Position numbers and translations under genes: made by a program
The notes under the pieces: generated by a model
Database searches by the model: none
Told to the model about the DNA's origin: nothing
Seen by the model: the letters and a program-made list of their open reading frames with translations, nothing else
In this document: one piece after another, positions 4,758-49,473 of the stretch
Layout: each line of letters opens with the position of its first letter
Position numbering within the stretch: position 1 is the first letter of the stretch
DNA from: Escherichia coli
GTDB taxonomy: Bacteria; Pseudomonadota; Gammaproteobacteria; Enterobacterales; Enterobacteriaceae
Reading direction: 5' to 3' (one strand)
Length of the DNA stretch: 64,000 bases
NCBI RefSeq assembly: GCF_009931435.1
Contig: NZ_CP043414.1

Positions 4758-5240
4758 TTAAGGGGTAGTAATCACTACTGCGACGCGGCGGTTCTCGGCG
4801 CGGCCCTGGGCGGTCTTGTTACTGGCTATGGGATATTTTTTTCCTAAACCCTGTGTGGTGAGGTTGCTGCGCGGAATTTGTCCACCTATAGCCCATGCAT
4901 CGGCCACAACATTCGCCCGTTTCAATGATAAGGCTTCGTTGTAACTGTCTTCACCATAGTTGTCGGTGTGTCCATCCATACGGGCATGCGTTAGCCCTGT
5001 CGAGGCCAATTTGGCTGCCATGGTTTGGATCTGTTGCTGGCTTTCCGGGAGCAATTTGTAGTCATTTTTTGCGAACAGAATGGCATCTGATAATCCCAGC
5101 GACCAGTCGCCGGCGGATTCAGTAAATCCATAAGATTGCATAGCGGCAACTTGCTCAGGAGTAAACTTTCCCTGAGGGGACTGGCAGCCAGTCAGTACTA
5201 GCGAGGTGAAAATCAGGGGTGCTACCAGGTGCTTTATCAT
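4758..5240 (-). CDS. yfiB: OmpA-family outer membrane lipoprotein YfiB
   Basis: 160 aa; lipobox LVLTGC; OmpA-like C-terminal domain; yfiRNB operon. Confidence 0.9.
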   Translation of the reverse strand: MIKHLVAPLIFTSLVLTGCQSPQGKFTPEQVAAMQSYGFTESAGDWSLGLSDAILFAKNDYKLLPESQQQIQTMAAKLASTGLTHARMDGHTDNYGEDSYNEALSLKRANVVADAWAIGGQIPRSNLTTQGLGKKYPIASNKTAQGRAENRRVAVVITTP

Positions 5241-5255
5241 ATCGATATATCCTTG

Positions 5256-6482
5256 TTATCTCACCAGCTTTTCGGCACGCTGGTGTTTGGCCTGATACAT
5301 ATTGTGATCGGCCAGCTCTTGTAATTTTTCCGCAGAGGCATGCTCAATGGTCATCGCGTAACCAATGCTTAATGTCATGGTGGTCTGATGACCATTATGA
5401 AGATCAAACGGGCGATTAAAGATTTGTGTCAGTGCTGAGCATATCCGCTGCACTTCAGATTCCGACTGTACACCATAGAGCACCATCGCGAATTCATCGC
5501 CGCCTATGCGGTATGCTTTATGTTGCAGCCCGCCAAATTCTGCTAACCGTTTTGCTACCTCAATCAAGACCCGATCGCCCGTCGCATGACCCCAGGTATC
5601 GTTGATATATTTAAAATTATCGCCATCAAGAAACAGTAACGCCGACGTTTTTCTGGCATCGGAACTGCTCATCAACGTGTTGATGCCGCTACGAAACGCA
5701 GCCCGGTTCGCCAGCCCGGTTAATGGGTCATGTAGCGCGGTACGTAGAAGCTGCGCATTTTTGGCCTGTAAACGAAGCTGCCACTCTTCCATTTCATCCA
5801 GCAGACTGTTGAAGTCGAGAGCGAAGCGGTGAAACTCAGCGATACGTTCTTCCGAAACTCGTCGGGAAAAATTGCGGTTGGAACGCACATCATGTACGAC
5901 ATCGGTGATATTTTTCAGCGCTTCCACCAGGCCATTGTGCAAATGGCGGGTGAGGGTAATTGCGATGCCTGATGCCAGCAGAATACAACCGGTCAGGACA
6001 GCGAGCGAAAACCAGATAAAATGGCTGATCGAGCTGTCGCGAGCGGTTAAGCGTACTTCGCCAATGGTTTCACCATTGTGACGAATCGGCTGAGTGATGG
6101 GGGCAGGGAAGAGCCAGTGGCTTATGAAATTGCTGAAAGTATCGCCTGGATCCTTACGGGTGTAATGCCAGGATGCCAGAATATTTTGCTGCTTATCACG
6201 CACTTCTGCAGTTGAAAATTGCCCTTGCTTCCCCAGCGCTGCCAGTGTTTGAGTTGCTGCAGGGCCATCGGCAAAAACGACCGCTGCTTCCAGACTGTAA
6301 GTCATTGTTGCTGCTGTCAGTGCCAGGTTTTTTTGCGCGTACTGTTTCAGGGTCAGCACCGAGGTCACGGAAAGCAGCAACCAGATCAGCATCATAGTGA
6401 TAAATATGCTGGTCATACTGATGTTGCGTAATGCTCTTTTAAACGTGGGGCGCTTATTAAGAGAATTATCGTTATCCATCAT
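5256..6482 (-). CDS. dgcN: Diguanylate cyclase DgcN/YfiN (membrane GGDEF protein)
   Basis: 408 aa; N-terminal TM/HAMP region; GGDEF domain with RIGGDEF motif. Confidence 0.93.
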
Positions 6483-11320: not shown

Positions 11321-11347
11321 ACAAAAAACGCGCCCGAAGGTGCGTTG
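11321..11347. repeat. attL: left copy of 27-bp direct repeat (acaaaaaacgcgcccgaaggTgcgttg)
   Basis: Matches 49447..49473 with one mismatch; integrase gene lies just inside. Confidence 0.75.
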
Positions 11348-11433: not shown

Positions 11434-12456
11434 TTATGTGGATGAAATGTGGATGCCTCCTTTTAACGGATTAAGTGAAATTGCATCCTGGAGGAAATCA
11501 GGAGCGAGGTGCGCATAGGTCATAGTTTGCTGGATCGTGGCGTGCCCCATAATTCGCTGGAGCGTAAGTATATTTCCTCCATTAATCATAAAGTGAGCAG
11601 CAAAGGTATGGCGTAGAACATGTACAGCCTGTCCTTTTGGTAGGTCTGGCTTAACACTGCGAAGCACCTTGCGATATTCCTCATAATTGACGTCAAACAA
11701 AAGGCCGGATTTCTTTGTTTTGATCTCACTAACAACTTCATCAGAGACAGGAATAATTCGAACTTTTCCGTTTTTAGTTTTGTTAAACGTCACGCGATTA
11801 TTGATGATGTGTTCCGCGCGCAGATTTTTCGCTTCTCCCCATCTCGCCCCAGTACTGAGACAAAGTAGCGTAATCCGCCGGGCATCACCGCTTACTGCAT
11901 CCAGTAATTTGGCGATTTCTTCCATGGTGAGATACGTCATTTCGGGTGATTTTCGTTTCAAAGAGGGGAGGGCGCGGAGCGGATTTTCTCCGTGAAATTC
12001 CCCGGCATTTGCCAGGAGTGTAAACATTCCTCCGAGATCCGACTCATCACGCCGAACAGTAGACTCTTTTACTCCCAAAGATAAACGGGAGCTTCGATAA
12101 GCGGCCATGAAACGAGCATTAATCTGGCTAACCCTTGGATCATTCATTTCTTTGATGATTTTTTTCAACCTGGTTAGAACGCCGTTAGCATATGGCTTAT
12201 TGCGTCCACCCAATTCCCACCATAACGGAAGCAGATCTGAGAGATGACGTTGCTCTGTTGGCTTTTCAAGCCATTCCTTATCGTGCATGTGGCTGAGAAC
12301 ATAACGCTCAAAGGCCACTGCATCTGCCTTTTTCTTAAAAATCCGCTGAATCCGACGTCCACTTCGGCCACGCGGTCTAACATCCACTTTATACCGTCCA
12401 CCATCGAGCGCTTTAATTGCCATTGGCAAGCCCTCCGGTGAAACGAGGAAAGACAT
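11434..12456 (-). CDS. int: Tyrosine integrase, P2 Int-like (start possibly at 12423, MAIKALDGGRY)
   Basis: Similar to P2 Int as I recall it (LSTGARWGEA, HxLRHTFA, YAH motifs). Confidence 0.9.
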   Translation of the reverse strand: MSFLVSPEGLPMAIKALDGGRYKVDVRPRGRSGRRIQRIFKKKADAVAFERYVLSHMHDKEWLEKPTEQRHLSDLLPLWWELGGRNKPYANGVLTRLKKIIKEMNDPRVSQINARFMAAYRSSRLSLGVKESTVRRDESDLGGMFTLLANAGEFHGENPLRALPSLKRKSPEMTYLTMEEIAKLLDAVSGDARRITLLCLSTGARWGEAKNLRAEHIINNRVTFNKTKNGKVRIIPVSDEVVSEIKTKKSGLLFDVNYEEYRKVLRSVKPDLPKGQAVHVLRHTFAAHFMINGGNILTLQRIMGHATIQQTMTYAHLAPDFLQDAISLNPLKGGIHISST

Positions 12457-45281: not shown

Positions 45282-45880
45282 TCACCGGGCATACCCCCCC
45301 ATAAACGCCCATCACGCAACGCACGGCTCCGGTCGTGCGTTTTCATATCTGCCACCTGATTAATGCGTTCTGCGTGCCATTCTGGCGCTGTATGCGCACA
45401 CCGCGTAAACGGTGTGACGTAAAGCGTGAGGTGACGTAAACCGCGCTACCCCCTCCAACCCGCGGGTTTCGTGTCGAAACAGTTTTTCAGTTTTCTGCCG
45501 TGCAAAAATGACCGCCAGCCCGCGCAGCAACTGAGGGAAAAGCGAAGATCTGAAATTTCACGCTTTGAAATTTTTTGCAGTTTTCAAAGTGGTTTTTACG
45601 ATCGCACAAATGGCCGGAGCAATAAAACCGCATGATATTAAAAGAGTTTTCATACTTTACGCGAGACAAAAAAACGATCACGAAAGGATCGCATCAAACA
45701 GCCATCAAACAAAGAAGGCAGACACGGCGCGGCCTGCACAAAATTAAGCTCCAAAATAAAACTGAAAAAAAGGATCGCAACAAGAAGAAAAGCGCGTAAA
45801 ACGATCGCTGCTGATGTGGCGTTTCTTTATACAAGCTGCTATTTGCGATATGCTGAACACATCAACCTGTGGAGTGCATT

Positions 45881-46507
45881 ATGAAACGAAAATCAAAGTC
45901 TGCTGCCATTGCTGCTATTACTACAGCTCTGACAGCATCACTGGCTCCGGTGCCAGCTAAAAGCACGATACTACCAACAACAGTTATTGAATCCGCGACA
46001 CACGCCAGAGTGGTTTCAATGCTTACATTTGAGCATCATGATGGTCAGGTGTTTCTGCCTCTCGAAGAAGCTATTGAATATATCAACGGGCTGAATGACA
46101 ACATGCGCGCCGCGCTCAATGCAGTCATTGAAGAACGACAGAACAGAGGCAAGGGAGCACTGTTTACTGACAAAACCGCAAAAATCATAAAAATATGCGA
46201 AGAGTCAATTAAGCAGCACACCCGTGTTAAAGAGGCTGTCAAAATTGTAATGGATCCGGATAACCTGGCAAAAATGTATCCGGATAGCCTGGAGCAAAGA
46301 ATCGCCTATCGCAATAAACTGGTTCGTTTTGGTCGGGCAATTGCGCAGGGAGAGTTTATCGCTCGTGATGCCATCAACACCATCAAACGAAGCACCGCAC
46401 CAGACAAAACAACCAGCCTGGGCAATACGCTGTCTGACGGAAATGTGAAAGCAATGATTATTGCCGAGCATAAAAACATGGGACTCCCGGCACCGGAGTT
46501 TTCCTGA
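45881..46507 (+). CDS. Hypothetical protein (208 aa) with signal-peptide-like N-terminus, coupled to the YafO-like gene
   Basis: GGAG RBS before MKRKSK; N-region/hydrophobic stretch MKRKSKSAAIAAITTALTASLAPVPA; TGATG overlap with next gene. Confidence 0.6.
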   Translation: MKRKSKSAAIAAITTALTASLAPVPAKSTILPTTVIESATHARVVSMLTFEHHDGQVFLPLEEAIEYINGLNDNMRAALNAVIEERQNRGKGALFTDKTAKIIKICEESIKQHTRVKEAVKIVMDPDNLAKMYPDSLEQRIAYRNKLVRFGRAIAQGEFIARDAINTIKRSTAPDKTTSLGNTLSDGNVKAMIIAEHKNMGLPAPEFS

Positions 46508-46887
46508 TGGCAAGCAAAGTAAGCATTCATAAAGATGTTGAATACCAGGACATTGCAAAAGTTTACGGAAAGGCTCTGGAAAACTGGTTAAATACCGGTG
46601 TTCTCCCTGACAGATTCGGCAATGAAGGGCAGTGGGAAGATAACGCAAGATTATGTGGTTCGTTTGTATATAAATTACACATAAGACTACCGTCAGAACC
46701 ACCATGGAAGAAAAGCAAAGCCCAAATAGACAGAACTTCAAATATCTATCTGGTTTATACAAGGCACTGGATGGATTATGACAATATACAAATCATCAGC
46801 ATCATGGCCCCAGATGCTCACGAAAAAGCCAAAACTTCTTTCATGGCTGAACTGGAAAGACGGGCTGAAGAATTCCAGAACTCATAA
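46507..46887 (+). CDS. YafO-family toxin-like protein (126 aa)
   Basis: Blocks GVLPDRFGNEG, HIRL, YLVYTR and C-terminal ISIMAPDAHEKAK...AEEF resemble E. coli YafO as I recall it. Confidence 0.55.
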   Translation: MASKVSIHKDVEYQDIAKVYGKALENWLNTGVLPDRFGNEGQWEDNARLCGSFVYKLHIRLPSEPPWKKSKAQIDRTSNIYLVYTRHWMDYDNIQIISIMAPDAHEKAKTSFMAELERRAEEFQNS

Positions 46888-46907
46888 ATTGCCTGATTTT
46901 CTCTCAG

Positions 46908-46942
46908 AAACCCGCAGCGTAAAAACTGTGGGTTTTCTTTTT
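46908..46942 (+). terminator. Rho-independent terminator after the YafO-like operon
   Basis: Hairpin aaacccgcag...ctgtgggttt followed by T-run. Confidence 0.65.
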
Positions 46943-47178
46943 GCTACCCTGATACGTGAGGGTAGCACTCAAAGTGAGGCAATATGTAGGCAACCTATTT
47001 AATACGTAAAAATTAATGCATTAAATGGATATTTACTAGCATGGGTACTGGCTTAAAATATCACAACCCTGTTTTATAACGTACTGAATTTATTAGGTGT
47101 GACGGTTTTCCAATGGGGCTTCCGACATTACGTTCAGCTGATGCTTTTCTTATGTAACGAGAAGACATATATTGGTAA

Positions 47179-47234
47179 GCGATGAAGCGATGAAGCGATG
47201 AAGCGATGAAGCGATGAAGCGATGAAGCGATGTA
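47179..47234. repeat. Octanucleotide tandem repeat (GCGATGAA) x6 plus one degenerate unit, flanked by ATGTAACG
   Basis: Directly visible; about 95 bp upstream of the ATPase start codon. Confidence 0.95.
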
Positions 47235-47251
47235 ACGTCTGTTTGGTTATA

Positions 47252-47296
47252 AACTTCACACTAATAATTTCTAAATGAAATTATTAGTGTGAAGTT
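47252..47296. promoter_or_regulatory. 20-bp perfect inverted repeat (aacttcacactaataatttc / gaaattattagtgtgaagtt, 5-nt spacer): candidate operator or 5'-UTR hairpin
   Basis: Perfect palindrome ending 34 bp upstream of the ATPase ATG; RBS AAGGAA follows. Confidence 0.6.
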
Positions 47297-47329
47297 GATG
47301 TTTATTGTGATTATAACTAAGGAATTAAA

Positions 47330-48799
47330 ATGAAATTATCTCCAGCAGAATTGAAGTTAGAAAGGGGTAAGGTTCAAGATAATAAATTCAATCAATATGT
47401 TAAACGTATCACATTAAAAAATGTCAGAGGGTTTGATGAGGAAATTGTGGAGTTTAAAACACCAGTTACAGCTCTTATCGGGACTAATGGTGGAGGGAAG
47501 TCGACTATATTAGGTGCTGTAGCTCTCGCTTATAAAAATGTTAAGCCAAGCAAGTTTTTCCCTAAATCATTTTATGGGGATGATTCAATGAGTGATTGGG
47601 AAATTGGATTCGAATTGATTGACAAGCCTATTTCAAAAGATAAAAATATTAACAGGACTGCAAAATTTAAACAGATGAAATGGCGCAGAGATAATTTCCC
47701 AGAGCGAAATGTTGTATATGTAGAAATACAAAGAACTGTTCCTGCAGGCGAACTAACTAAGTTTAATAAATTTTTATCTGGCGATGCTAAACAATTTGAA
47801 GAAAAAAATCTCAACCCTGAGACAATAAAATATTGCTCTGCCGTTTTAGATAAAAAGATAGAAGATTACAGATGTATAATAAATAAGCACGATCCATCTT
47901 CAAGAATGTTTGTAGGTAAGGCAATTAATGGTTCTGGTTATTCTCAGTTCCATTTTGGTGCAGGTGAAGCATCAATAATAGATACTATTGATAGAATAGA
48001 GACTGCTGCTGATAATTCTCTTGTTTTAATTGAAGAAATTGAAAATGGACTGCATCCTGTTGCAGTGCGGTTGTTTGTTAACTATTTGACAAATGTAGCA
48101 AAGAGGAAAAAGCTGCAAATAATATTTACAACACATTCGCAGGATGCAGTAAACGAGCTAGAGCCAGAAGCTGTTTGGGCTTCTATTAACAAAAAAGTAT
48201 GGAATGGTAAACTAAGTATTGAAAGTTTACGCGCTATAACGGGACAGAAGATAAATTCGAAAGTTATATATGTTGAAGATTCTTTTGCAAAAGAGTGGGT
48301 TGAAAATGCGATGGATCGATATATTCCAGAACTAGCCTCAACAATAAAAGTCTACACGGCAGGTGGTTACCCCAGCGTGGTTAAAGTAAGTCAATATCAT
48401 AATGAGAACCCTACTATAAATTATCCATCAATCGCATTAGTTGATGGGGATATTAAAGGTAGACCCGGAACTAAAGATCTGCCTGATAATGCAATGTTCA
48501 TCGGGGATGATTATCCTGACGCTACGGTTTTTCATTATATTGCAAATAACATAGAAGAAAATGCCTCAGTTTTGAGGCAAAGATGTTTGTTAACAAGATT
48601 TGACGCTGAAAAGATTAAATCGGAAGTTGAGAGTGTGATGCATTCTGCATGTGATCACCATGTTTATTTTACTAGATTAAGTGATAAATTAGATTTTGCC
48701 TCAGAACTATTCATTCGAGCTGGTATGATAGATTTATTTAATGAGAAAAATCCAGAATTTTGGTCCCCAATTATGGACTTCATTAAAAAAGGTCTATAG
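47330..48799 (+). CDS. OLD-family-like ABC ATPase fused to Toprim/DUF4435-like domain (489 aa); candidate antiphage defence protein
   Basis: Walker A GTNGGGKST, Walker B LVLIEEIE, H-loop TTHS; C-terminal YVEDS (Glu) and ALVDGD (DxD); AT-rich gene. Confidence 0.65.
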   Translation: MKLSPAELKLERGKVQDNKFNQYVKRITLKNVRGFDEEIVEFKTPVTALIGTNGGGKSTILGAVALAYKNVKPSKFFPKSFYGDDSMSDWEIGFELIDKPISKDKNINRTAKFKQMKWRRDNFPERNVVYVEIQRTVPAGELTKFNKFLSGDAKQFEEKNLNPETIKYCSAVLDKKIEDYRCIINKHDPSSRMFVGKAINGSGYSQFHFGAGEASIIDTIDRIETAADNSLVLIEEIENGLHPVAVRLFVNYLTNVAKRKKLQIIFTTHSQDAVNELEPEAVWASINKKVWNGKLSIESLRAITGQKINSKVIYVEDSFAKEWVENAMDRYIPELASTIKVYTAGGYPSVVKVSQYHNENPTINYPSIALVDGDIKGRPGTKDLPDNAMFIGDDYPDATVFHYIANNIEENASVLRQRCLLTRFDAEKIKSEVESVMHSACDHHVYFTRLSDKLDFASELFIRAGMIDLFNEKNPEFWSPIMDFIKKGL

Positions 48800-48865
48800 T
48801 AATAATGCAAAAATATAATATTTAGTTTGCGATTTATATTTTTCATAATGAATTGTTGAGAAAAT

Positions 48866-48901
48866 AAGAGAGCATCGAAAATTGAGGCTCTCTTATTTTT
48901 A
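48866..48901 (+). terminator. Rho-independent terminator after the ATPase gene
   Basis: Hairpin aagagagc...gctctctt followed by T-run. Confidence 0.7.
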
Positions 48902-48959: not shown

Positions 48960-49346
48960 TTGTCGATCAGACATTCGCACTATTCAATATCTTTTAGGCT
49001 CCGCAATGAAAACGCCCCCGAAGGAACAATCCCCCGTCAATCGGTTGCCAAAGGCCATTTAGGTAAATCGCCTTCGAGGTCGTTCGATGGCTGCATGACG
49101 TTCCCGGTTATCCCGTCAAAGAAAATGCACTCGACCGGAAAACCAGAAGAACTAATGGCGGAGTTGGTCAGGACTGCGAATAGTGGCGGAACAGTCCTTG
49201 ATCCTTTTATGGGGCCAGGGACAACGGGTGTGGCTGCACTGAAAGCAGGGCGAAAATTTATTGGTATAGAGACCAGTGATCATTATTTTGAAGTAGCAGC
49301 ACAGCGACTTCGGGGGACTATTACCACAACCATTTCGACTACATAA
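48960..49346 (+). pseudogene. 3' fragment of a beta-class DNA methyltransferase gene (N6-adenine or N4-cytosine), N-terminally truncated
   Basis: HSTGKPEELMAEL and VLDPFMGPGTTGVAALKAGRKFIGIE (SAM-binding FxGxG) present; no catalytic DPPY region upstream. Confidence 0.6.
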
Positions 49347-49378: not shown

Positions 49379-49446
49379 CATTAGTGATGTGGACAGTTTG
49401 TGGATGTTTACAAGAAATAAGCTAATAGAAACAATTTGTTATCTTT

Positions 49447-49473
49447 ACAAAAAACGCGCCCGAAGGCGCGTTG
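49447..49473. repeat. attR: right copy of the 27-bp direct repeat; also the raiA terminator hairpin
   Basis: acaaaaaacgcgcccgaaggcgcgttg; perfect hairpin acgcgcc/ggcgcgt plus T-run on the raiA strand. Confidence 0.75.

What the first reader, a model, noticed from the sequence alone, without database searches (positions are those of the whole stretch)
47151..47296. Octanucleotide microsatellite plus 20-bp perfect palindrome in the 5' region of the ATPase gene: possible phase-variable or operator-controlled switch
Six perfect tandem copies of GCGATGAA (plus a degenerate seventh) sit about 95-150 bp upstream of the ATPase start, bracketed by the direct repeat ATGTAACG. A perfect 20-bp inverted repeat with a 5-nt spacer ends 34 bp before the ATG. 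Short tandem repeats near promoters are classic slipped-strand phase-variation devices, and a long perfect palindrome at this spot is typical of a repressor operator or a regulatory RNA hairpin. Neither is explained by any annotated feature.
Basis: seen in the sequence. Interest (0 to 1): 0.65.

Follow-up and report, generated by a model that had tools for sequence, protein, structure and literature searches.

The report
Hypervariable 8-bp repeat before prophage defence gene
Just upstream of an anti-phage nuclease gene carried by an E. coli prophage there is a real 8-base tandem repeat whose copy number differs between strains, even near-identical ones, next to a perfect 45-base palindrome; it looks like a mutational dial on a toxic defence gene, but no effect on expression has been shown.

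Summary
Both observations are real. GCGATGAA occurs as 6 perfect units plus GCGATGTA (47179-47234). A perfect inverted repeat with 20-bp arms and a 5-nt spacer lies at 47252-47296 and ends 33 nt before the ATG at 47330.

The gene is a full-length HEC-04 protein, an ABC-ATPase fused to a TOPRIM nuclease. HEC-04 is a published anti-phage defence that is toxic when induced. Here it forms a self-contained cassette (about 47116-48900) at the right end of a P2-family prophage between pheA and raiA.

In about 30 E. coli genomes the array has 4 to 15 units, while the 95 nt between array and ATG are almost invariant. Two isolates with no substitutions over 49 kb differ by exactly one unit.

Both features are young. 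The Salmonella orthologue (88% DNA identity) has a homologous leader but only one degenerate unit and no palindrome. Homologues at 73-78% identity have unrelated upstream regions.

The best sigma-70 match lies inside the palindrome, which puts the array at about -57 and further upstream. My preferred reading is a graded expression dial (0.4). A neutral VNTR is nearly as likely (0.35). I found no evidence for a repressor operator.

The parts
46907..46936 (+). Intrinsic terminator ending the upstream yafO toxin-antitoxin unit. It is also shared with other P2-like prophage right ends.
   Evidence: 11-bp stem, 5 GC pairs, T-run. The homology with the hok-context prophages and EcPF40 starts here.
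47032..47059 (+). Alternative upstream sigma-70-like promoter match, TTTACT-16-TAAAAT. If it is active, the array and hairpin would lie in a 5' UTR of about 265 nt.
   Evidence: The -10 is TAAAAC in Salmonella and Citrobacter, so it is not conserved.
47096..47107 (+). GGTGTGACGGTT, the last copy of a TGTGAYGG motif family belonging to the conserved phage non-coding region. It marks the end of the phage backbone just before the cassette.
   Evidence: Citrobacter prophages share sequence up to TGTGACGGTTTTCCGATGG and then diverge.
47116..47178 (+). Cassette-specific leader upstream of the array. The left boundary of the cassette is at about 47115.
   Evidence: 76% identical to the Salmonella leader. 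Absent from Citrobacter prophages that lack the gene.
47179..47234 (.). Hypermutable VNTR: (GCGATGAA)6 plus GCGATGTA in the window, and 4-15 units in other E. coli genomes.
47252..47296 (.). Perfect palindrome with 20-bp arms and the 5-nt spacer TAAAT.
   Evidence: Unchanged in all E. coli copies except one with the SNP 47256 T>C.
47255..47284 (+). Best sigma-70-like promoter match: TTCACA (-35), an 18-nt spacer, and TGaAATTAT (extended -10). The inferred transcription start is about 47291.
   Evidence: The TG motif is present only on the + strand, because the loop is asymmetric. This is a prediction only.
47311..47324 (+). 3' strand of an outer helix (pairs with 47243-47252), followed by the Shine-Dalgarno sequence AAGGA (47320-47324).
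   Evidence: (I9), and direct reading of the sequence.
47330..48799 (+). HEC-04 defence gene, an ABC-ATPase fused to a TOPRIM nuclease, 489 aa.
   Evidence: PADLOC HEC-04, E = 6e-204, profile positions 5-488 of 494. Pfam AAA_15, AAA_21 and AAA_23. Published function.
48861..48899 (+). Terminator hairpin that closes the cassette.
   Evidence: I9 (16-bp arms, 94% complementary, flanked by A and T runs).
48960..49346 (+). 3' fragment of an N6/N4 DNA methyltransferase gene. The cassette replaced its 5' part.
   Evidence: It is 90% identical to the 3' end of the intact com-linked methyltransferase in L004.
49447..49466 (.). attR core ACAAAAAACGCGCCCGAAGG. The attL copy is at 11321-11340. Integrase arm-type sites TGTGGAYR lie at about 49393-49410 and 11437-11457.

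Best explanation
The 215-bp private leader of a prophage-borne HEC-04 (ABC-ATPase-TOPRIM) defence cassette carries two evolutionarily young DNA features.

(1) An 8-bp tandem array expands and contracts by replication slippage far faster than point mutation. This is shown.

(2) A perfect 45-bp palindrome contains the best sigma-70 promoter match: -35 in the left arm, extended -10 in the right arm, and an inferred start at about 47291. This is inferred.

On this reading the array starts at about -57 and pushes the AT-rich upstream DNA away in 8-bp steps, each of which also rotates it by about three quarters of a helical turn. Unit number would then act as a heritable, reversible dial on transcription of a nuclease that is toxic when over-expressed. 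That would give lysogen populations a spread of defence levels. I expect a graded effect rather than a clean on/off switch. The effect on expression is inferred, not shown.
For: Hypermutability:
- 4, 5, 7, 8, 9, 10, 11, 13, 14 and 15 units are seen in about 30 genomes.
- The 95 nt downstream of the array are identical in all but two genomes.
- Haplotypes with identical flanks carry 7/8/9, 8/8/9 and 13/13/9/9/9 units.
- ETEC1717 and ETEC1718 show no mismatches in 49 kb. They differ only by one 8-bp unit and one homopolymer G.
- Runs of the variant unit GAGATGAA also expand and contract, which is the signature of slippage.

Position:
- The array lies 20 bp upstream of the best promoter match, which is inside the palindrome and has a TG extended -10 only on the gene's strand.

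Motive:
- HEC-04 defends against T4 and T5, and it could not be IPTG-induced because of apparent toxicity.

Cassette autonomy:
- The cassette has its own leader and its own terminator. It occurs in three different upstream contexts and always with this leader.

Precedents:
- Repeats upstream of or within promoters and leaders tune expression at nadA and hmw1A.
Against: - There are no expression data, and the transcription start is only predicted in AT-rich DNA, where consensus matches are cheap.
- The array is not between -35 and -10 and not in a reading frame, so any effect may be small.
- The Salmonella orthologue has the same leader length but a single degenerate unit and no palindrome. Homologues at 73-78% identity have unrelated leaders with neither feature. 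The gene therefore does not need these features.
- Every helical phase is represented among natural unit numbers, which fits neutrality as well as bet-hedging.
- Intergenic E. coli VNTRs used for typing are generally treated as neutral (my own knowledge).
Confidence: 0.4

Rival explanations
1. The array is a neutral hitch-hiking VNTR. It arose from a chance two-unit proto-repeat (GCGATGAA GCGATGTA) and drifts in length with no meaningful effect on the gene. The palindrome is a by-product of local rearrangement. At most it is a hairpin that insulates the toxic gene from read-through transcription coming from upstream phage or toxin-antitoxin genes.
For: - Both features are lineage-specific and absent from the Salmonella orthologue and from other homologues.
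- The -89 to -24 segment is only 44-50% identical between E. coli and Salmonella. The coding sequence is 88% identical and the upstream leader blocks 76-86%. This points to recent remodelling rather than conservation.
- The array RNA has no structure above shuffled controls (z = -0.54).
- The pattern scan flags the hairpin as terminator-like.
- The right arm resembles the 5' end of the gene, including a 12-nt exact repeat AAATGAAATTAT, which suggests an origin by duplication.
- One natural copy carries an uncompensated arm SNP.
Against: - An insertion of 32-120 bp that begins 20 bp upstream of a -35 element rarely leaves a promoter completely unaffected.
- The arrays stay nearly pure up to 15 units.
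- The hairpin has an AT-rich 20-bp stem and an interrupted U-run, which is not a typical efficient terminator.
- A strong terminator already sits at 46907-46936.
Confidence: 0.35
2. A 5'-UTR mechanism of the hmw1A type. Transcription starts upstream (for example from the 47032-47059 match), so the array and the 20-bp helix are both in the leader RNA. The perfect helix is an RNase III substrate or a translational element, and array length alters processing, stability or translation.
For: - An upstream promoter-like match exists.
- The hairpin is a perfect 20-bp dsRNA, extended by a 9-10-bp outer helix that abuts the Shine-Dalgarno sequence.
- Precedent: the hmw1A heptamer SSR lies in a 5' UTR hairpin cleaved by RNase III.
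Against: - Unlike hmw1A, the repeats are not part of the hairpin and pair with nothing.
- The upstream -10 is not conserved.
- If RNase III cut the hairpin, the array would be removed from the mature mRNA, making unit number irrelevant.
Confidence: 0.1
3. A repressor-operator switch of the nadA type. A DNA-binding protein recognises the GTGTGA-containing arms of the palindrome and the related upstream site GGTGTGACGG (47096-47105). The variable tract changes the spacing and phasing between the two operators.
For: - GTGTGAHGKT occurs 4 times in the window against 0.71 expected, and three of the four are in this leader.
- The TGTGAYGG motif is multiplied about tenfold in the homologous phage region of Salmonella and Citrobacter.
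- The palindrome overlaps the predicted promoter.
- Precedent: nadA.
Against: - The motif pattern was chosen after seeing the sequence.
- TGTGAYGG alone is not enriched in the window (7 found against 4.7 expected).
- 20-bp perfect arms are far longer than a typical operator half-site.
- There is no regulator gene in the cassette and no other copy of the half-site in the prophage.
- The palindrome is absent in Salmonella.
Confidence: 0.08

Closest known systems
Promoter-proximal simple-sequence-repeat contingency loci, e.g. the Neisseria meningitidis nadA TAAA tract (PMC2791445)
   Same: A short-unit tandem tract lies upstream of the core promoter. Its length changes by slippage and differs among close relatives. 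In nadA, tract length changes the spacing of distal elements and gives graded expression states.
   Different: The unit here is 8 bp rather than 4. No flanking operators or IHF site are demonstrated and no regulator is known. The host is E. coli, where long SSRs are rare (my own knowledge). The target is a prophage defence nuclease rather than a surface adhesin. The effect on expression is untested.
Haemophilus influenzae hmw1A/hmw2A heptanucleotide (ATCTTTC)n repeats in the 5' UTR, with an RNase III-cleaved hairpin (PMC12721329)
   Same: There is a 7-8-nt unit array of about 10 copies in the 5' region of a gene, next to a long RNA helix. In hmw1A, expression scales with unit number.
   Different: In hmw1A the repeats themselves form one arm of the hairpin. 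Here the array is unstructured and the hairpin is a separate perfect palindrome. Whether the array is transcribed is unknown.
E. coli VNTR typing loci (MLVA markers; my own knowledge)
   Same: These are intergenic or prophage-associated arrays with 6-9-bp units whose copy number varies between closely related strains through slippage.
   Different: This locus is confined to a rare cassette (16 of 5426 complete genomes). It sits directly against the promoter region of a toxic defence gene. I found no paper that mentions the unit.
HEC-04 / IbfA single-gene ABC-ATPase-TOPRIM defence (bioRxiv 10.1101/2024.01.29.577857; PMC12111858)
   Same: The downstream gene is a full-length member of this family (PADLOC E = 6e-204).
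   Different: The published work used inducible or plasmid-native promoters. No repeat or palindrome control element has been described for the family, and none is present upstream of the homologues examined here.

Membership tests
SSR contingency / phase-variable locus | A tandem tract of short identical units | tested here: met
   7.0 copies of an 8-nt unit at 100% identity.
SSR contingency / phase-variable locus | Tract length is hypervariable relative to the surrounding sequence, including among clonal isolates | tested here: met
   4-15 units with invariant flanks. One unit of difference between isolates with no substitutions over 49 kb.
SSR contingency / phase-variable locus | The tract is placed in a promoter, 5' UTR or reading frame so that its length alters expression | tested here: inconclusive
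   It lies -151 to -96 from the ATG and 20 bp upstream of the best -35 match. It is not between -35 and -10, and the + strand has stop codons in all three frames. The transcription start is unknown.
SSR contingency / phase-variable locus | Reversible switching of the phenotype with tract length | not testable with these tools
   This needs reporter, efficiency-of-plating or single-colony deep-sequencing experiments.
hmw1A-type 5'-UTR SSR with RNase III hairpin | The repeats form one arm of a long leader hairpin | tested here: not met
   The array is unpaired, with z = -0.54 against shuffles.
hmw1A-type 5'-UTR SSR with RNase III hairpin | A long dsRNA helix in the leader is cleaved by RNase III | not testable with these tools
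   A perfect 20-bp helix exists if it is transcribed. Neither transcription through it nor cleavage is known.
nadA-type operator-flanked tract | Binding sites for one regulator on both sides of the tract | tested here: inconclusive
   GTGTGA-containing sites lie on both sides, but the pattern was chosen post hoc and no regulator has been identified.
Repressor operator | A dyad-symmetric site overlapping the promoter, with a cognate regulator or recurrence in a regulon | tested here: inconclusive
   The dyad overlaps the promoter match. There is no adjacent regulator, no second site in the prophage, and no conservation in Salmonella.
Intrinsic terminator | A GC-rich stem of 5-14 bp followed directly by a U-run | tested here: inconclusive
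   Flagged by the pattern scan. However, only 5 of the 20 stem pairs are GC, and the tail GAUGUUUAUUGUG is interrupted.
Iterons / replication origin | Repeats spaced in helical phase (about 11 or 22 bp) beside a rep gene or an AT-rich unwinding region | tested here: not met
   The period is 8 bp and the units are strictly contiguous. The cassette has no rep gene.
Dispersed palindromic element (REP / MITE-like) | Many copies per genome | tested here: not met
   It is found only at this one locus, in 16 of 5426 E. coli genomes, and in no plasmid or phage record.
Dam-dependent phase variation | GATC sites within the regulatory region | tested here: not met
   There is no GATC in 47000-47330.
HEC-04 defence protein (the downstream gene) | Full-length match to the family profile, with an ABC-ATPase N-terminal part and a C-terminal extension | tested here: met
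   PADLOC PDLC04149: E = 6e-204, protein residues 2-488 on profile positions 5-488 of 494. ATPase domains confirmed by Pfam. I did not check the TOPRIM active-site residues.

The most novel reading that the evidence does not exclude
This may be a genuine simple-sequence-repeat contingency promoter in E. coli. Slippage of an 8-bp tract, perhaps acting between operators on either side, would make lysogen populations heterogeneous in how strongly they express a toxic OLD-like nuclease of the abortive type. That would be bet-hedging of prophage-encoded immunity by a mechanism so far associated with Neisseria and Haemophilus surface genes and restriction-modification systems, not with enterobacterial defence cassettes.
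Probability: 0.2. Interest if true: 0.7.

Novelty: new member of a known kind. Interest (0 to 1): 0.45.

Why it matters
If unit number tunes expression, this would be a simple, sequence-readable example of stochastic control of a toxic anti-phage gene in E. coli. It would link contingency-locus biology to the prophage defence islands now being catalogued. It would also mean that defence phenotypes predicted from gene content can differ between otherwise identical isolates.

There are practical consequences whatever the function. The tract is a very fast clock that separates isolates with no substitutions over 49 kb. It also breaks short-read assemblies at this locus, so it will be missed or mis-sized in draft genomes.

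Tried and rejected
- A protein-pattern scan of species-representative genomes found no relatives.
- A DNA-pattern scan of the same collection found only two Citrobacter prophages. They share the phage backbone but lack the cassette.
- A metagenome scan gave a single contig that ends inside the array.
- Rfam gave only sub-threshold microRNA-like hits to the hairpin.
- Full-text searches for all 16 rotations of the unit on both strands found nothing relevant.
- Leader-peptide idea rejected. All three + strand frames of the array contain TGA. The 41-codon GTG ORF on the - strand (47134-47259) has no ribosome-binding site, and its frame changes with every unit.
- Iteron or origin idea rejected: the period is 8 bp and there is no rep gene.
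- Integrase arm-site idea rejected. The real arm-type sites TGTGGAYR lie next to the att core, 2.1 kb away.
- REP/MITE idea rejected: this is a single locus.
- Dam switch rejected: there is no GATC.
- From my own reading of the sequence I saw no CRP, LexA or Fur box in the palindrome, because the half-site order or spacing is wrong. I ran no tool for this.
- ATGTAACG as a target-site duplication rejected. Both copies exist in diverged form in Salmonella, which has no array, and the second copy is ATGAAACG in other E. coli contexts.

Full report
**1. What is in the sequence**

- Tandem Repeats Finder reports a period-8 array at 47177-47232 with 7.0 copies at 100% identity and score 112. This is by far the strongest tandem repeat in the 64-kb window.
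- In the GCGATGAA register there are six perfect units (47179-47226) and a seventh, GCGATGTA (47227-47234).
- The inverted repeat has perfect 20-bp arms (47252-47271 and 47277-47296) around TAAAT. It ends 33 nt before the ATG at 47330.
- It is the best close inverted repeat in the window.
- It folds far better than shuffled controls, both as DNA (-19.4 kcal/mol, z = -11.2) and as RNA (-33.5 kcal/mol in a 110-nt context, z = -6.7).

**2. Genomic setting**

The window is E. coli chromosome. A prophage is inserted between pheA/pheL and raiA. It is bounded by the 20-bp direct repeat ACAAAAAACGCGCCCGAAGG at 11321-11340 and 49447-49466, with integrase arm-type sites TGTGGAYR beside each copy. The near-identical prophage of strain ETEC1717 is annotated with P2-family portal, terminase, scaffold and capsid genes.

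The gene after the finding (47330-48799, 489 aa) is a full-length match to the PADLOC family HEC-04 (E = 6e-204), with ABC/SMC-type ATPase domains.

HEC-04 is a published single-gene defence, an ABC ATPase fused to a TOPRIM nuclease. It is active against T4 and T5 and needs both domains. It was not IPTG-induced because of apparent toxicity (bioRxiv 10.1101/2024.01.29.577857). IbfA of IncI plasmids is a homologue (PMC12111858).

**3. The cassette and its boundaries**

The leader and the gene always travel together.
- Both occur in the same 16 of 5426 complete E. coli genomes, and in no plasmid or phage record.
- They sit behind three different upstream neighbours: a YafO toxin pair as in the window, hok, or a com-methyltransferase pair.
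- They always lie in front of a 3' methyltransferase fragment and raiA.
- In the methyltransferase context, that fragment is 90% identical to the 3' end of the intact upstream gene. The cassette therefore displaced the 5' part of a methyltransferase gene.
- Citrobacter prophages at the same site share the phage non-coding backbone up to TGTGACGGTTTTCCGATGG and then diverge. This places the left edge of the cassette near 47115.
- A hairpin at 48861-48899 closes the cassette.
- The gene is about 33-35% G+C, against about 45-55% in its surroundings.

**4. The array is hypermutable (shown)**

- Across the complete genomes and further assemblies I could read, the tract has 4, 5, 7, 8, 9, 10, 11, 13, 14 or 15 units.
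- The 95 nt from the array to the ATG are identical in all but two genomes: one SNP at 47297 and one at 47256.
- Groups with zero differences in about 1.8 kb of flank carry 7/8/9, 8/8/9 and 13/13/9/9/9 units.
- ETEC1717 and ETEC1718 align over 49 kb with no mismatch. Their only differences are one extra 8-bp unit and one homopolymer G.
- Runs of the variant unit GAGATGAA also change length (2, 3 or 5 copies, counting the terminal GAGATGTA). This is what slipped-strand mispairing produces.
- Short-read assemblies end in the array or leave a gap there.

**5. Both features are young and dispensable (shown)**

- Homologues at 73-78% protein identity were examined in Enterobacter, Pectobacterium, Pantoea and a P2 A-to-portal hotspot. 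Their upstream regions are unrelated, with no array and no long palindrome.
- The Salmonella orthologue is the informative case. It is 94% identical in protein and 88% in DNA.
- Its leader is homologous in collinear blocks (76-86% identity) and has exactly the same 89-nt distance from ...TCTGTT to the ATG.
- At the array position it reads GGTAAGAGAGAAAATGATGTAAGTTCTGTT, a single degenerate unit.
- The -89 to -24 segment that holds the E. coli palindrome is only 44-50% identical.
- There it forms only an imperfect hairpin, centred elsewhere and no better than shuffles (z = -1.0).
- The array thus expanded from a proto-repeat, and the perfect palindrome was created by local remodelling in the E. 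coli lineage.
- The right arm and loop resemble the gene's own start. AAATGAAATTAT is repeated exactly at 47273 and 47328, and TGAAGTT follows in both. This hints at a duplicative origin.

**6. How it might work (inferred)**

- The best sigma-70 match in the leader lies inside the palindrome. TTCACA is at 47255-47260, followed by an 18-nt spacer and then TGaAATTAT ending at 47284.
- The asymmetric loop gives the TG motif only on the gene's strand.
- This predicts a start near 47291 and a 39-nt leader carrying AAGGA.
- The array then begins at about -57. It displaces the AT-rich upstream leader by 8 bp, about 0.76 of a helical turn, per unit.
- This architecture is closest to promoter-distal repeat tracts such as nadA. 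I expect a graded effect, not an on/off switch.
- A second promoter-like match at 47032-47059 would put both features in a long 5' UTR.
- In that case the perfect 20-bp helix, extended by an outer helix next to the Shine-Dalgarno sequence, is a plausible RNase III or translational element, as at hmw1A.
- Unlike hmw1A, however, the repeats here pair with nothing (z = -0.54).
- An operator role for the palindrome has no positive support. There is no regulator in the cassette, no other half-site in the prophage and no conservation.
- GTGTGA-containing sites do lie on both sides of the tract, but that pattern was chosen after seeing the data. TGTGAYGG on its own is not enriched in the window.

**7. 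Verdict**

The structures and the hypervariability are real and were previously unannotated. I found no literature on the repeat unit.

- The mutational behaviour qualifies the tract as a contingency-type repeat.
- Its regulatory consequence is unproven.
- Its absence from the orthologue shows it is an add-on, not the cassette's basic control.

I rate the dial on a toxic defence gene at 0.4, a neutral VNTR with an incidental or insulating hairpin at 0.35, and the 5'-UTR and operator-pair variants at about 0.1 each. It is a new member of a known kind, promoter-proximal SSR loci, in an unusual host and gene class. It is moderately interesting and cheap to test.

Noticed in passing
L032 about 1700-2000; L034 about 1700-1990; L035 about 1650-1940; window 47059-47069 and 47096-47107: The right-end non-coding region of related P2-like prophages in Salmonella and Citrobacter holds about ten copies of TGTGAYGG / CCRTCACA in about 300 bp. 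Some are at 11-bp spacing (CATCACAAGAGCATCACAGAAGCATCACAG). The E. coli window keeps only two copies. This looks like a protein-binding cluster of unknown function.
   Followed up: partly
window 47273-47284 and 47328-47339: There is an exact 12-nt direct repeat AAATGAAATTAT. One copy is in the loop and right arm of the palindrome, the other at the start codon of the ATPase gene. TGAAGTT follows both copies, and the left arm is therefore complementary to the first codons of the gene. This may be a relic of a duplication of the gene's 5' end.
   Followed up: partly
L018 and L019 (contigs end 127 bp before the ATG); L054 (run of N inside the array): Short-read and metagenome assemblies break or leave gaps exactly at the 8-bp array, so draft genomes will often lack the tract or mis-size it.
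   Followed up: yes
L051, position equivalent to window 47256: One natural E. coli copy carries T>C in the left arm. This breaks both the perfect palindrome and the -35 match (TTCACA to TCCACA), and there is no compensating change in the right arm.
   Followed up: no
window 45869-46507 and 46507-46887: The 212-aa ORF overlapping the start of the YafO-family toxin gene is named 'SufA' in RefSeq, but it matches no NCBIfam model. It is probably the cognate antitoxin and is mis-annotated.
   Followed up: partly
window 48960-49346; L004 2689-2948 versus 5134-5393: The methyltransferase fragment after the cassette is a 90%-identical duplicate of the 3' end of the intact com-linked methyltransferase found upstream in other prophages. 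This marks how the cassette was inserted or recombined.
   Followed up: partly
L024 3001-4476: A 78%-identical HEC-04 homologue sits in the classic P2 defence hotspot between the replication gene A and the portal gene. Its 668-bp upstream region is unrelated.
   Followed up: partly
L026-L031; cluster members P0121-P0131: Hundreds of Salmonella draft assemblies report this gene as 'partial' with many different N-terminal truncation lengths. Contigs break repeatedly inside or just before the AT-rich 5' end of the gene.
   Followed up: no
L036 30101 versus L037 (yfiH): ETEC1717 has G7 where ETEC1718 has G8 in yfiH, and yfiH is annotated as frameshifted in ETEC1717. Apart from the VNTR unit, this is the only difference in 49 kb. 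It may be a sequencing error or a real homopolymer slip.
   Followed up: no
L016 3001-3147 (E. coli EcPF40, next to prpB): The segment 46908-47050 (terminator plus about 110 bp) recurs at the right end of a P2-like prophage integrated at a different site beside prpB, without the cassette. This shows that it is phage backbone and not part of the cassette.
   Followed up: partly
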